Below are positions 1,043 through 4,284 of a stretch of 64,000 nt of DNA, one piece after another. The stretch is from the NCBI GenBank assembly GCA_965261135.1, contig OZ253443.1, forward strand, positions 2,597,677 to 2,661,676, read 5' to 3'. Origin of the DNA: Acidimicrobiia bacterium. GTDB taxonomy: Bacteria > Actinomycetota > Acidimicrobiia > Spongiisociales > ZC4RG35. The notes under the pieces are model-generated. The model was not told the DNA's origin. It was given only the letters and a program-made list of their open reading frames with translations, and did not search any database. A program made the translations under genes and the position numbers. The first letter of the stretch is position 1. Every line of letters starts with the position of its first letter.

Positions 1043-1581
1043 TTAGGCGGTTAGTAGGGGGATGAGTTGTTCTTGGGGGGTGATGCCTCCGTGGTGTCCG
1101 ATCGCGTGGGGGTGGATGTGTTGGGGGAGGATGACGGTGTTGGGTGATGCTAGGAGCGCGGCGGTTGGGAACTGTTGTTTGAGTTCAGGGTGGGGGTCTC
1201 CTCCGCCCAGCCACTGCCTCAGTTGGTCAGCATCCACGTATAGGGCTTGGGTTCTTTCGCTGATGCGGTGTATCTGTTCGCTGGACCCACAGAACATGAG
1301 TGCTCGTCCGTCGCCCCAGTAGTCCAGTCCCCGGGTGAGATGTGAGCCGAGTCTGATCCTTCCCTCTGAAGGGATGTCGAGGTGTCCGTGGTCGGCTGTT
1401 CCGATCAGCGCGGTGTTGGAGGGGACAGATCGTGATAGGCGGTTCCAGAGGCGGGTTGTGTCTTTGAGGGCTGTGCGGTATTCCACCGAGTGTTGTCCGT
1501 GCATGTGGGCGGCTCTGTCCACTGGTGAGAGGTAGACCACTATCAAGGAGGGGGTGGTGCGATCCAACAGCAGATGTGAGC
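1043..1581 (-). pseudogene. Alkaline phosphatase/nucleotide pyrophosphatase family protein, C-terminal part (split by IS110)
   Basis: Metal-binding motifs DRAAH, GTADHGH, GHHGG; in frame with 2853-3420 once the IS is removed. Confidence 0.85.
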
Positions 1582-1583
1582 TC

Positions 1584-2612
1584 CTATGTCAAAATCTGGG
1601 CTGTTTTCGGGGGTTGGAGGTGGGTCCAGATGCGGTCTGAGATTCGTCGTTTGAGGACACGGATTGCTTCTCTGTGGGTCTTTCCTCGGGTGATGAGTTT
1701 TTGGTAGTAGTGGCGTCCTTCGGTGTCTTGGCGGGCGATCTGGGTGAGAGCGACGGTGTGGATGGCCCGGTTGATTTGGCGGTTCCCGCCGCGGTTGAGC
1801 CGGTGTCTCACCACTCGCCCGGAACTGGTTTCGAGGGGTGCGGTACCGTTGGCCATGGCGAATTTGTCTTTGGTGGGGTACCGGTGGGGGTTTCCGACCT
1901 CGGCGATGATGGTGGCGGCGACCAGCACACCGACCCCGTGGATGTCACGCAGGCGGGTTCCGGTTTGGTTGACCAGTTCTTCGATCTCTGCGGTGAGCTC
2001 TTTGATTTGGGTGTCGAGTTGGCGCAGGGTTCGGATGCGCTGTTTGGCGACCCGGGCTCTGGGGGTGGTGTCTCGCCATAGCAGTTTCATGGCTTGGTCG
2101 AGGCTCTTTTGGGTGGTGAGCCGGGGAATGTTGTGGTGGTAGCCGGGTCGGAGCTTGCCGAGGTCGGCGTGGAGCCGGTTGGCCTGCGCGGTGCGGTCTT
2201 CTACCAGTTCACGGCGGTATGTGACCAGCACCCGTAGACTTTCGGTGTCCTCCCAATACGTCGGAGCGGCTAGGGTGTGGTCTCGGAGAGCGATCCGGGC
2301 GATCACCAACGCGTCGACCTGATCGGTTTTGGTCTGGGTGCGGCCCCGGCGCCGGACCTGGGCGGTCAACTGGGGTGGCATCTCCCGAACGTCCAGACCG
2401 GCTGTGACAGCGGCCACCCCGAGCGGACGACCGTAGGTGCCGGACCCTTCAATCGCCACCCTGGCCACATTACAGTTCTGCGCCCAGCTGACCAGTTGAC
2501 GGTGACCTGGAGGGGTGTTAGCGATGGTCCGGTACTCCAAGGGCGTGCCCAGGTGGTCCACCAGACAGGCCGCGAGGGTATCCTTGTGCGAGTCGATCCC
2601 GATAACGAACAT
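1584..2612 (-). CDS. IS110-family transposase/recombinase (DEDD RuvC-like and Tnp domains)
   Basis: N-terminal IGIDSHK, AIEGSG, KTDQVDA (DEDD); GTAPLETSSG catalytic-serine motif; RGGNRQINRAI; GGAGG RBS. Confidence 0.95.
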   Translation of the reverse strand: MFVIGIDSHKDTLAACLVDHLGTPLEYRTIANTPPGHRQLVSWAQNCNVARVAIEGSGTYGRPLGVAAVTAGLDVREMPPQLTAQVRRRGRTQTKTDQVDALVIARIALRDHTLAAPTYWEDTESLRVLVTYRRELVEDRTAQANRLHADLGKLRPGYHHNIPRLTTQKSLDQAMKLLWRDTTPRARVAKQRIRTLRQLDTQIKELTAEIEELVNQTGTRLRDIHGVGVLVAATIIAEVGNPHRYPTKDKFAMANGTAPLETSSGRVVRHRLNRGGNRQINRAIHTVALTQIARQDTEGRHYYQKLITRGKTHREAIRVLKRRISDRIWTHLQPPKTAQILT

Positions 2613-2631
2613 GGTTCATCCTCCGATACTT

Positions 2632-2840
2632 TGGGGGTATTTTCGGGAGCGGCAGAGGCTCGGCGAAGCGCATCCATGCGTCGAAACAAACACCCCCGAA
2701 AGGGCGGCTTAGGTCACGCTCCTATCAAGCGACAACACCGAGCGGGCAACCGGTGGGGAGGCACTCACACCAACAGCCAACCTGTTTTGAGGTGCGCAAG
2801 GGTTCATGGAGCCATCTCCACCGGCACTGCCACACCCCCA
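2632..2840 (-). ncRNA. Predicted IS110 bridge RNA (target-binding and donor-binding loops)
   Basis: Two long hairpins with internal loops. Guides AACCCUUGC (2796-2804) and UGUGAGU (2763-2769) match the target; AUAGGAGCGUG (2715-2725) and ACGC (2678-2681) match the circle junction. RNA ends approximate. Confidence 0.8.
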
Positions 2841-2852
2841 CATATAACACGC

Positions 2853-3420
2853 ATGGGTTGATGTCGGACAGAGACGAGTATCCGTGTCGTTTCGCTCCCC
2901 GGTAGAGCATGTCGCTGAGGGGAGAGTCTCGAAAGAACGAGGAGGGATGAATCGTGACAGGTGTGACACCGGCGGCGGCGAGGCGTTCCCACAGGTTGGG
3001 GGTGGGCAGGAAACCGGTCGGGTCATAGTCCACCCGGTTCCCTTCTTCTATGTCTTCCCAGAACATCATGTTCACCACTTTCTGGAGGGTGGGTATCCAT
3101 TGGGTGAACCCGGTCACTCCATGCTGCATGGGTGCCATGGCGGTGGCTACCGAGGAGAGACTGACCACGGTCGTGGTGGGAAACGGCGCCCTCAGTACAG
3201 CCTTTTGGGATCGGCGCAGCCTAGCGGCGGTGGGATGCGCCAGTTGGTGGGCGCCGAGACCGTCGTTGATGACCAGGACGTAGTTGCGTTTGTGGGGAAT
3301 CAGTTCAGCCAGGTCAGCGCGTAGGCCTCGGGTGGGAGACCGACCCGTTAGCCGGGTCTCCAACTCGCCTACGAGGTTCACCAGGTTATCCCCCTCATAG
3401 GAAGGCACCAGGTGGTCCAT
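2853..3420 (-). pseudogene. Alkaline phosphatase/nucleotide pyrophosphatase family protein, N-terminal part (split by IS110)
   Basis: MDHLVPSYEG...VLVINDGLG...FPTTTVVSLSSVAT...HGVTG family motifs. Confidence 0.85.
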
Positions 3421-3422
3421 GG

Positions 3423-3686
3423 CTAGGGTATTTGAGACTTTACGAGGATGGGGTTTGCGGACCATCCGAGCAGTTTCCAGTGCCATGGGGTGTTGTAACC
3501 CACTTTGCACATGGCTTCTTGGATGATGCCTAGGGGCAGCAGCTTTATCGCTTCTATCACGGTGACCTTTTCACCTTGATAGAGCACGCCCGGTAGGTGG
3601 GTGTTCTGGTTTTCGCTGAGCCAAGCCTCAGCGAATGCGTCTACCAGGTCTTCCCTGGTGACAGACGGGAGTTCTGTTGTGGCCAT
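3423..3686 (-). CDS. Small hypothetical protein (87 aa), first gene of an operon with the phosphatase
   Basis: AAGGAG RBS before ATG 3686; stop lies 2 nt before the phosphatase ATG. Confidence 0.6.
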   Translation of the reverse strand: MATTELPSVTREDLVDAFAEAWLSENQNTHLPGVLYQGEKVTVIEAIKLLPLGIIQEAMCKVGYNTPWHWKLLGWSANPILVKSQIP

Positions 3687-4284
3687 GGGGATGTTCTCCT
3701 TGTTGTCGGTCCTATCAGCCGTTTCCTCGAGAGACCGCACAGGGGGCGCAGGGACGATCCCGACCTCTGGGGAGGCCGGGATCGTTGTGGTGCGCCGTTG
3801 TGTGTTCTCCTCTCGGCTGGCGAATGGACATTCTCTTGGCCCGGGATCCCGCTCGCTGTTGTGGGTTAGCGACGGGGCCAGGGCCTCTGCTATGAGAGAT
3901 GTACCGAGGTTGCCCGCGAACACGAAAAACTGTTTTCGGAAAACCGCACATCACCTGTGTCCGGTCGCCCCGGGGCGGGCGTCTCCTTCAGGCACTGGTG
4001 ATGTTGTTGGCCAGGGTGGTCGTGGTGGGACCAGCGGGCACACCCGTGTCACTCTGCAGGGGAATACCCGGTGGGAACGGCAGGAGGGCATATTATCGGC
4101 AGGGCGGTGGCAGGCGCCGGGCAATCCCCGCAAAACGAACCAGCCATCCCACCGGTCTGCCACCACCCGAACGCGAGAGCGAAGTTTCGCGGCGCAACCC
4201 CTGTCTTTTCTCGAACACATACCCAGCTAGAGACGACGGGTTTCACTTCTCATAGGTCATGGAAGTGGGTTAGGTTGACGGGTT

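What the first reader, a model, noticed from the sequence alone, without database searches (positions are those of the whole stretch)
2632..2840. IS110 bridge RNA whose four guides can be read against target and donor (GC core)
Seen (minus strand): joining the flanks gives target AACCCAT-GC-TCACA; joining the IS ends gives circular donor CATAGGA-GC-GTGTT. The 5' non-coding end has hairpin 1 (CCGGTGG...CCACCGG closing, AACAG/CTGTT apical stem). Its internal loop holds AACCCUUGC (2796-2804; 8/9 identical to target left plus core) opposite UGUGAGU (2763-2769; complementary to GCTCACA with one G-U). Hairpin 2 (GCUCGGUG...CGCCGAGC) holds AUAGGAGCGUG (2715-2725), an 11/11 match to a sequence that exists only at the excised circle junction, opposite ACGC (2678-2681; complement of GCGT). 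Established: this is the LTG/RTG/LDG/RDG layout of IS110 (IS621-type) bridge RNAs; IS621 uses a CT core. Inference: an intact RNA-guided recombinase with a GC core and preferred target near AACCCWT-GC-TCACA, a candidate programmable tool.
Basis: partly seen in the sequence, partly recalled or inferred. Interest (0 to 1): 0.85.

Follow-up and report, generated by a model that had tools for sequence, protein, structure and literature searches.

The report
IS110 insertion sequence with GC-core bridge RNA
This is a complete IS110-type jumping gene whose upstream non-coding RNA carries short guide sequences matching both its insertion site and its own joined ends, an ordinary member of the recently described bridge-RNA recombinases that recombines at a GC rather than a CT dinucleotide.

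Summary
Every motif lies at the stated minus-strand coordinates.

The element is a 1,269-bp IS110-group insertion sequence (1582-2850) with GC on both sides. It splits a phosphodiesterase gene, and removing it plus one GC restores the frame. Its 342-aa recombinase is intact and aligns with IS621 at all five catalytic residues.

In the window copy alone, only the 11/11 donor match beats chance: 0 of 1000 shuffles. The target guides do not: 962 and 208 of 1000.

Comparison settles it. Across 21 related copies (20 distinct sites, 14 distinct target loops), each copy's loop matches its own flanks better than other copies' flanks. No permutation reached the observed score (0 of 5000) for either the left or the right guide.

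Refinements:
- The left guide spans about 11 nt plus core, and the right guide 9-10 nt.
- Target base -2 is skipped or mismatched in most copies.
- The four bases after the right donor guide (AUGG) covary with target CCAT, acting as a long handshake guide.

Transcription and activity are untested. I rate it a new member of a known kind, of modest interest.

The parts
1582..2850 (-). Body of the IS110-group insertion sequence (1,269 bp), without terminal inverted repeats.
   Evidence: The same ends (GC|GTGTT ... CATAGGA|GC) recur in 13 further full copies with unrelated flanks. Two of these are 83-84% identical copies in the same genome.
2851..2852 (-). Left copy of the GC core dinucleotide.
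   Evidence: GC is the only sequence shared by both junctions. It is present at both junctions in all 14 copies.
1580..1581 (-). Right copy of the GC core dinucleotide.
   Evidence: Removing 1580-2850 (1,271 nt, the body plus one GC) restores the reading frame of the host gene.
2853..2863 (-). Left target (CATCAACCCAT), the span read by the left target guide.
   Evidence: RNA-library contigs of a close copy align through 2863 and then continue into a different flank.
1573..1579 (-). Right target (TCACATC), read by the right target guide.
   Evidence: Positions 1-5 and 7 form Watson-Crick pairs and position 6 a G-T wobble.
2613..2850 (-). Left non-coding end (238 nt) that encodes the bridge RNA. 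The structured part is about 2824-2658. The RNA ends are not mapped.
   Evidence: Folds, the alignment of 14 variants and the donor-loop architecture.
2811..2824 (-). 5' strand of the basal stem of the target-binding loop (CCGGUGGAGAUGGC).
   Evidence: It pairs with 2750-2762. Pair 42/102 changes GC to AU in 2 sequences and to GU in 2.
2796..2808 (-). Left target guide, (C)AUGAACCCUUGC, ending in the core GC.
   Evidence: Over the 9 variable positions it matches 7 of 9 in the ungapped register. Cognate guides beat non-cognate ones across 20 sites, with 0 of 5000 permutations reaching the observed score.
2772..2795 (-). Apical stem-loop of the target-binding loop. In this copy it differs from that of the relatives.
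   Evidence: In the relatives the apical stem covaries: pairs 58/85, 60/82, 61/81, 62/80 and 63/79 have changes on both sides. The window copy breaks three of these columns.
2763..2771 (-). Right target guide, GGUGUGAGU. It pairs with the core through a G-U.
   Evidence: Covarying examples: UGUGA with TCACA here, AGUGA with TCACT in L002, AUGA with TCAT in L016.
2750..2762 (-). 3' strand of the basal stem of the target-binding loop (GCCUCCCCACCGG).
2736..2743 (-). 5' strand of the basal stem of the donor-binding loop (GCUCGGUG).
   Evidence: It pairs with 2658-2665. A duplex was predicted between the two flanking segments in all 14 variants (energies -11.3 to -19.6 kcal/mol), with differing sequences.
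2718..2725 (-). Left donor guide, AUAGGAGC (left donor ATAGGA plus core). It is followed by GUG (2717-2715), identical to the first 3 nt of the element.
   Evidence: An 11/11 match to the joined ends, reached by 0 of 1000 shuffles. AUAGGAGC is invariant in 14 variants; GUG is AUG in L025.
2678..2681 (-). Right donor guide, ACGC (complement of the core plus GT).
   Evidence: Invariant in 14 variants. Four nucleotides alone are not significant.
2674..2677 (-). Handshake guide of the donor loop, AUGG (complement of target CCAT at -4 to -1).
   Evidence: It covaries with the left target: AUGG with CCAT in 11 of 14 variants, AUGU with ACAT in L023 and L026, ACGG with CCGT in L025.
2658..2665 (-). 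3' strand of the basal stem of the donor-binding loop (CGCCGAGC).
1584..2612 (-). Recombinase gene (342 aa), with GGAGGA at 2624-2619 upstream. The stop codon lies 2 nt from the end of the element.
   Evidence: Pfam DEDD_Tnp_IS110 (6.7e-33) and Transposase_20 (2e-19). NCBIfam NF033542, 216.8 bits against a cut-off of 140. IS621 chain 8wt6_A at E = 4.6e-21, with D7, E55, D97, D100 and S264 aligned to its catalytic residues.
1587..1592 (-). TTGACA at the right end, overlapping the left donor.
   Evidence: Conserved in 13 of 14 copies. No matching -10 hexamer at 14-19 nt was found across the joined ends.
2853..3510 (-). N-terminal part of the interrupted phosphodiesterase gene.
   Evidence: Pfam PF01663, profile positions 2-105. 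It aligns to residues 2-197 of an intact 374-aa homologue.
1043..1579 (-). C-terminal part of the interrupted phosphodiesterase gene.
   Evidence: Pfam PF01663, profile positions 158-249. It aligns to residues 199-373 of the same homologue.

Best explanation
The stretch is the left non-coding end of an intact IS110-group insertion sequence, and it encodes a bridge RNA.

The RNA forms two stem-loops, each with an internal loop. The first loop reads the target:
[quoted passage not shown] The second loop reads the element's own joined ends:
[quoted passage not shown] The 342-aa DEDD/serine recombinase would bind both loops, cut beside the shared GC dinucleotide and exchange strands. The excised circle would then enter the target with no duplication. 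The four bases after ACGC (AUGG) would pair with target CCAT once the top strands are exchanged, as a handshake.

Shown here: the boundaries, the GC core, the intact catalytic residues, the two-loop architecture, and the covariation of the left target, right target and handshake guides with the flanks.

Inferred by homology with IS621: that an RNA is made, the order of cleavage and exchange, and the circular intermediate.
For: Boundaries and core:
- 14 full copies share GC|GTGTT ... CATAGGA|GC with unrelated flanks.
- Removing the element plus one GC restores the frame of a PF01663 gene. The two halves align end to end with intact homologues of 368-393 aa, within about 2 residues.

Recombinase:
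- Both Pfam domains match.
- The NCBIfam model 'IS110 family RNA-guided transposase' scores above its cut-off.
- It aligns to IS621 (8wt6) and ISCro4 (9t56), with D7, E55, D97, D100 and S264 at the catalytic positions.

Guides:
- Over the 9 variable left-target positions, cognate guide-site pairs score a mean of 8.05 (n = 20 sites) against 5.29 for non-cognate pairs (n = 360).
- Over right-target positions 4-9, the means are 4.44 (n = 16) against 2.37 (n = 194).
- Shuffling sites among guides reached the observed sum in 0 of 5000 trials for each guide. The same held with one representative per distinct loop: 14 for the left guide, 11 for the right.
- Perfect 9-of-9 left-guide matches occur in L010, L011, L012, L016 and L023.
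- By my reading of the strings, the right guide pairs over 10 nt, core included, in L002, L003, L017, L020, L023 and L026. A G-U stands at the core in all but L023.

Handshake guide: three types match three left-target types.

Donor guide: 11/11 to the joined ends, reached by 0 of 1000 shuffles, and invariant in 14 variants.

Structure: target-loop stems with compensatory changes. A donor-loop basal duplex was predicted in all 14 variants (-11.3 to -19.6 kcal/mol), and apical hairpins of unrelated sequence in 13 of 14, none in L023.

The layout agrees with Durrant 2024 (sections 6, 7, 12 read) and with the handshake passages of Hiraizumi 2024.

A second site for this loop type: contigs from two RNA libraries of one study carry a close copy (2 differences and 1 gap in 170 nt at the left end, 7 in 207 nt at the right end). 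At the left end they continue into a different flank after 11 nt of shared left target. A separate contig at a right end does the same after 5 nt of shared right target.
Against: - No RNA ends, promoter or activity are shown.
- No sigma-70-like promoter was found in the integrated context (0 found). None was found across the joined ends with spacers of 14-19 nt (0 hits). IS621 and ISPpu10 rebuild a promoter at that junction.
- Rfam has no matching family (0 matches at E up to 1).
- In the window copy alone the target guides are not beyond chance.
- The left guide has two mismatches here, at -8 and -2.
- The apical stem of its target loop departs from the relatives' covarying stem.
- The donor loop and the donor ends never vary in this set, so donor covariation could not be tested.
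- No clear handshake guide is seen in the target loop. The bases after the right target guide lie in a covarying stem.
- The whole-region fold is not unusually stable (z = -1.62).
Confidence: 0.88

Rival explanations
1. The element is a genuine IS110 with a bridge RNA region, but this particular copy is stranded. Its RNA would be poorly expressed or its altered target-loop apical stem would impair it, so it no longer moves.
For: - No promoter-like site was found in place or across the joined ends.
- The apical stem differs from the covarying stem of the relatives.
- The genome holds only one copy of this type. It has no other site within 2 mismatches of the 18-nt target, and two sites at 3 mismatches.
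Against: - The reading frame is full length with all five catalytic residues.
- A close copy with the same guides sits in a different flank in contigs of another study, so this loop type has inserted at least twice.
- The element lies in the same orientation as the gene it interrupts, so read-through could supply the RNA.
- The promoter scan uses an E. coli-type consensus, which may not fit this class of bacteria.
Confidence: 0.15
2. The matches act at the DNA level rather than through an RNA guide, for example as recombinase-binding sub-terminal repeats or as regulatory sequence of the transposase gene.
For: - The donor-type motifs are invariant, as a protein-binding site would be.
- No transcript was mapped.
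Against: - The target guides vary with the flanks of each copy, which a fixed protein site would not do.
- The guides sit in internal loops of stems that keep pairing through compensatory changes.
- The sense and antisense arrangement is that of IS621, where the RNA is necessary for recombination in vitro.
Confidence: 0.03
3. The complementarities are chance matches in a G+C-rich leader.
For: In the window copy alone, three of the four guide matches are reached by many shuffles: 163, 962 and 208 of 1000.
Against: - The donor match was reached by 0 of 1000 shuffles.
- Cognate guide-target scores were reached by 0 of 5000 permutations.
- The handshake guide covaries with the left target.
Confidence: 0.01

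Closest known systems
IS621 of Escherichia coli and its bridge RNA (Durrant et al. 2024, PMC11208160; Hiraizumi et al. 2024, PMC11208158; structure 8WT6)
   Same: - The recombinase is of the same family, with all five catalytic residues aligned.
- The RNA is encoded in the long left end.
- A target-binding loop is followed by a donor-binding loop.
[quoted passage not shown]
- A handshake guide follows the right donor guide.
   Different: - The core is GC, not CT.
- The handshake guide in the donor loop is 4 nt (AUGG) rather than 2.
- The right target guide is 9-10 nt rather than 4.
- The left guide skips or mismatches target base -2 in most copies.
- No local 5' stem-loop appears in the fold.
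- No junction promoter was found with the consensus scan.
- Protein similarity is distant (E = 4.6e-21).
ISCro4 / IS622 of Citrobacter rodentium (Perry et al. preprint 10.1101/2025.05.14.653916; structure 9T56)
   Same: An IS110-group bridge recombinase with target and donor loops and handshake guides (passages read). The protein matches at E = 2.7e-18.
   Different: - It has a CT core.
- It comes from a gammaproteobacterium.
- Its activity was shown in human cells, whereas nothing has been tested here.
ISPpu10 of Pseudomonas putida (preprint 10.64898/2026.03.19.712850)
   Same: A bridge RNA with wobble pairs and a mismatch tolerated inside the guide interfaces, and left-guide mismatches tolerated at some positions (passages read).
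   Different: - It has a CT core and a junction promoter.
- Its target carries a stem-loop as a second specificity element. I did not test for one here.
- The position next to its core does not tolerate mismatch.
IS1111 group of the IS110 family
   Same: The same recombinase family, also with a guide RNA (Durrant 2024, section 12).
   Different: IS1111 elements carry the RNA in a long right end and have sub-terminal inverted repeats of 7-17 bp. Here the right end is 2 nt past the stop codon and the RNA lies in the left end.

Membership tests
IS110 family recombinase (DEDD RuvC-like domain plus serine Tnp domain) | Both Pfam domains and the curated family model score above their cut-offs. | tested here: met
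   PF01548 scores 114.1 bits (cut-off 29) and PF02371 scores 70.2 bits (cut-off 21.3). NF033542 scores 216.8 bits (cut-off 140).
IS110 family recombinase (DEDD RuvC-like domain plus serine Tnp domain) | The catalytic D, E, D, D and S residues are present. | tested here: met
   D7, E55, D97, D100 and S264 align with IS621 D11, E60, D102, D105 and S241. The alignment is; the residue roles are from Hiraizumi 2024 passages.
IS110 group (as against the IS1111 group) | Long left non-coding end and short right end, with the RNA upstream of the recombinase gene. | tested here: met
   The left end is 238 nt (2850-2613). The right end is 2 nt after the stop codon. The criterion is from Durrant 2024, section 12.
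IS110 group (as against the IS1111 group) | No target-site duplication and no terminal inverted repeats. One core dinucleotide is shared by target and donor. | tested here: met
   GC lies on both sides in 14 of 14 copies. The frame is restored only with a single GC. The donor guide reads ATAGGA-GC-GTG with one GC.
Bridge RNA (IS621 type) | Two stem-loops, each with an internal loop. | tested here: met
   Folds, compensatory changes in the target-loop stems, and a basal donor-loop duplex predicted in all 14 variants.
Bridge RNA (IS621 type) | The left and right target guides are complementary to the target and covary with it. | tested here: met
   cognate scores exceed non-cognate scores, with 0 of 5000 permutations reaching the observed sum for either guide.
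Bridge RNA (IS621 type) | The left and right donor guides are complementary to the joined ends. | tested here: met
   AUAGGAGC(GUG) matches 11/11, reached by 0 of 1000 shuffles. ACGC is complementary to GCGT.
Bridge RNA (IS621 type) | The donor guides covary with the donor ends. | tested here: inconclusive
   The guides and the first 5 nt and last 7 nt of the element are invariant in all 14 variants, so there is nothing to covary.
Bridge RNA (IS621 type) | Handshake guides lie 3' of the right guides. They are complementary to the non-cognate DNA and not to the cognate DNA. | tested here: met
   In the donor loop AUGG, AUGU and ACGG match target CCAT, ACAT and CCGT. AUGG is not complementary to the donor's AGGA. 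In the target loop no clear handshake guide is seen, because the bases after the right target guide lie in a covarying stem.
Bridge RNA (IS621 type) | A promoter is rebuilt across the joined right and left ends. | tested here: not met
   0 hits with spacers of 14-19 nt. TTGACA lies at the right end, but the nearest TA-rich hexamer is only 10-13 nt away. The consensus is that of E. coli, so this does not exclude a promoter of another type.
Bridge RNA (IS621 type) | The RNA is expressed and bound by the recombinase. | not testable with these tools
   Contigs of two RNA libraries cover 2613-2863. Contigs cannot show transcription, ends or strand.
Bridge RNA (IS621 type) | A match to a curated covariance model. 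| tested here: not met
   Rfam 15 gave 0 matches at E up to 1 over 1400-3100. I did not establish whether Rfam holds a bridge RNA family at all.
Bridge RNA (IS621 type) | A CT core. This is a property of the characterised members, not a defining feature. | tested here: not met
   The core is GC. Durrant 2024 Methods restrict one analysis to 'CT core guides', which implies that other cores exist in their data.

The most novel reading that the evidence does not exclude
This clade of Acidimicrobiia elements may be a natural bridge recombinase that differs from IS621 in three ways:
- It works at a GC core.
- It checks the four target bases next to the core mainly through a 4-nt handshake guide in the donor loop, after strand exchange.
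- Its left target guide tolerates a one-base slip in register at target position -2.

One and the same guide is found at sites that fit in either register (L013 and L017). If so, it would widen the sequence space open to bridge editing and say something about how proofreading is divided between the two loops.
Probability: 0.4. Interest if true: 0.5.

Novelty: new member of a known kind. Interest (0 to 1): 0.35.

Why it matters
Bridge recombinases are being developed as programmable tools for insertion, excision and inversion. In the passages I read, the characterised ones (IS621, ISCro4/IS622, ISPpu10) all use a CT core. [quoted passage not shown]

A natural clade built around GC offers a ready comparison set for the rules of guide length, mismatch tolerance and handshake pairing. 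It has a long right target guide and a 4-nt handshake. It also offers 14 naturally reprogrammed target loops with their sites.

For genome annotation it is simply an insertion sequence that has inactivated a phosphodiesterase paralogue.

Tried and rejected
- Rfam search of 1400-3100 at E up to 1 gave nothing.
- Class-wide DNA search of 401 genomes: 3 of 401 genomes had a match, G000 included. It scored only 2 candidates per genome, so it is not a survey.
- The metagenome scan added 4 loci, all duplicates of types already held.
- Promoter scans found none in place and none across the joined ends.
- Search of the own genome for the 18-nt rebuilt target at up to 3 mismatches found only two sites, both at 3 mismatches. 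So there is no evident free target there.
- A long-range closing helix (GUGGCAG at about 2833-2827 with CUGCCGC at 2655-2649) looked possible by eye. RNAalifold drew a different pairing of the 5' end. The divergent relatives could not be aligned column for column, so I make no claim.
- A handshake guide in the target loop was rejected, because GCC after the right target guide pairs with GGC in a stem that covaries.
- A contig of run X4 joins 1576 to 2854 (skips 1277, side 28, depth 4). Another joins 1540 to 2855 with 37 other letters between. These may be element-free relatives of the host gene, but they are too short and too unlike to count.
- Word depth in the RNA-library contigs is higher on the left end than on the recombinase gene. 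Contig depths cannot rank parts of a gene, and the left end is shared by several element variants, so this is not evidence of expression.
- Literature: the phrase 'GC core' had 0 occurrences in the 10 papers listed of the 51 returned. 'Core' and 'handshake' passages were read.
- Supplementary tables of Durrant 2024 and Perry 2025 list predicted bridge RNAs and element boundaries.

Full report
**What is there**

On the minus strand the window carries a 342-aa open reading frame (2612-1584). It is preceded by 238 nt of non-coding sequence and followed by 2 nt. The protein has both IS110 domains: PF01548 at 6.7e-33 and PF02371 at 2e-19. It passes the NCBIfam model 'IS110 family RNA-guided transposase' at 216.8 bits against a cut-off of 140. 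It also matches the solved IS621 and ISCro4 recombinases at E = 4.6e-21 and 2.7e-18. In that alignment D7, E55, D97, D100 and S264 stand opposite the IS621 residues that Hiraizumi et al. 2024 name as the composite active site (passages read).

**Boundaries and core**

The same genome (one contig, 2.79 Mb) holds two more full copies at 83-84% identity. Genomes of Acidimicrobiia and one contig binned as Caldilineaceae hold eleven more. All 14 copies begin GC|GTGTT and end CATAGGA|GC, and their flanks are unrelated. GC is the only sequence common to the two junctions.

In the window the element splits a PF01663 phosphodiesterase gene. The upstream piece matches profile positions 2-105 and the downstream piece positions 158-249. 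Removing 1580-2850 (the body plus one GC) puts the two pieces in one frame. The pieces align to residues 2-197 and 199-373 of an intact 374-aa homologue from the same genus, abutting to within about two residues. Homologues of the upstream piece were found in 60 of 61 genomes of the family. Most had open frames of about 360-390 aa.

**The observation**

The two closing stems appear in the minimum-energy folds.

Taken alone, the window copy gives one significant match. The 11-nt identity to the joined ends was reached by 0 of 1000 dinucleotide shuffles. The other three longest core-spanning matches were reached by 163, 962 and 208 of 1000. So the reading of the target loop could not rest on this copy alone.

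**Comparison with other copies**

I collected 21 copies or left ends, including more distant ones: L023, L025 and L026 at about 65-67% identity (protein for L023, DNA for L025), and fragments L021, L022, L037 and L038. They give 20 distinct sites and 14 distinct target loops.

Left target guide:
- The 12 nt before the apical stem follow the left flank of their own copy.
- The 9 variable positions match 9 of 9 in L010, L011, L012, L016 and L023, and 8 of 9 (wobbles aside) in ten further rows.

Right target guide, from the strings:
- It follows the right flank for up to 8 nt beyond the core.
- Here UGUGA pairs with TCACA. In L002, GGUAGUGA pairs with TCACTACC. In L016, GAUGA pairs with TCATC. 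In L023, UAGGUUGA pairs with TCAACCTA.

Scores:
- Left guide: cognate mean 8.05 (n = 20) against non-cognate 5.29 (n = 360).
- Right guide: cognate mean 4.44 (n = 16) against non-cognate 2.37 (n = 194).
- Re-dealing sites among guides reached the observed sum in 0 of 5000 trials for each guide. The same held with one representative per loop.
- I dropped L014 from these counts because its flanks duplicate those of L013.

**Register of the left guide**

In 16 of 21 rows the best fit skips target base -2, the A of CCAT. In 5 of 21 rows (the window copy, L013 and its duplicate L014, L023 and L026) the fit is ungapped. L023 and L026 carry the A in the guide. The window copy and L013 have a mismatch there.

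The same guide occurs at L013, where the ungapped register fits 8 of 9, and at L017, where the skipped register fits 8 of 9. I have no explanation beyond tolerance of a bulge or mismatch at that position.

**Handshake guide**

The four bases after ACGC are AUGG in 11 of 14 variants, AUGU in L023 and L026, and ACGG in L025. The last four bases of their left targets are CCAT, ACAT and CCGT respectively. L019 is the exception, with AUGG against CCTT, one mismatch.

This is the position of the donor-loop handshake guide of IS621. There it pairs with the target top strand after exchange and must not pair with the donor. AUGG is not complementary to the donor's AGGA.

This also explains why all targets of the clade share CCAT, even though most left guides do not read the A.

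**Donor loop**

AUAGGAGC and ACGC are invariant, and so are the element's ends. Complementarity is therefore shown but covariation cannot be tested. The three bases after AUAGGAGC equal the first three of the element in 13 of 14 variants.

A basal duplex is predicted for the donor loop in all 14 variants (-11.3 to -19.6 kcal/mol) from differing sequences. The apical segment folds into a hairpin of unrelated sequence in 13 of 14, and not in L023. The target-loop stems show compensatory changes.

**A second site for this loop type**

Contigs from two RNA libraries of one study match 2694-2863 with 2 differences and 1 gap, then run on into an unrelated flank. They therefore align over 11 nt of left target. 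One of the two differences is at 2788 and the other is not listed, so it could fall inside those 11 nt. Another contig matches 1575-1781 with 7 differences and then diverges, so it shares TCACA and continues CC. That fits the right guide better than the window's own site does. The two ends may not belong to one copy. Contigs do not prove transcription.

**What is missing**

- No promoter-like site was found, in place or across the joined ends. This is unlike IS621 and ISPpu10.
- No RNA ends are known.
- There is no Rfam match.
- The target-loop apical stem of the window copy departs from that of its relatives.

**Comparison with what is known**

The layout is that of IS621. The differences:
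- a GC core;
- a longer right target guide;
- a 4-nt handshake guide;
- the skipped base in the left target;
- the lack of a recognisable junction promoter.

In the passages I read, the characterised systems all use CT. Durrant's Methods imply that other cores exist in their catalogue, whose tables I could not open. The literal phrase 'GC core' had no occurrence in the 10 listed of 51 papers returned.

**Verdict**

This is a genuine and probably functional IS110-group element with a bridge RNA. It is a new member of a known kind, with a few features worth a bench test.

Noticed in passing
L025 (genome G369, same genus), minus strand about 2660-4022 of the locus: The homologous element there is 2,595 bp long. 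A second, different IS110-family element with its own reading frame sits inside its right end, between TTGAC and ATAGGAGC. Only one base (C) is shared by the two inner junctions, so I could not assign its core.
   Followed up: partly
L007 = own genome, G000:C1 about 919980-923035: A decayed relative in the same genome. It has target and donor loops (LTG ending ACAUGC, RTG CUAGUUGAGU, AUAGGAGCGUG, ACGCAUGU). It lacks the GCGTGTT left end, and its recombinase frame breaks off after about 60 codons.
   Followed up: partly
L008 and L009 = own genome, G000:C1 about 1910987-1914028 and 290187-293228: Two copies (99.5% identical over 1,469 bp) of another IS110-group element. Its left end holds GAUAGGAGC, and also AUGAGUGGUC, the complement of the left junction of L009. 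This again looks like a right donor guide followed by a handshake guide. The core could be TC or CA, and I did not resolve which.
   Followed up: partly
L037 (G404) and L038 (G401): Fragments that keep the left end with the bridge RNA region but not a full recombinase gene. The DNA matches cover query positions 25-533 and 21-248 only.
   Followed up: no
L013 and L014 (genome G403, about 984 kb and 2,653 kb): Two copies with identical flanks for at least 25 nt on both sides. This suggests a duplicated segment that contains the element rather than two insertions.
   Followed up: no
window 1587-1592 (minus strand): A perfect TTGACA at the right end, kept in 13 of 14 copies (TTGCCA in L011). It has no -10-like hexamer at a usual distance across the joined ends. 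Its role is unexplained.
   Followed up: partly
L019 (contig binned as Caldilineaceae): A full copy lies on a 3.4-kb contig assigned to another phylum. Its DNA is 83% identical over the whole element, although the protein match was given as 61%. This could be a binning error or a transfer.
   Followed up: no
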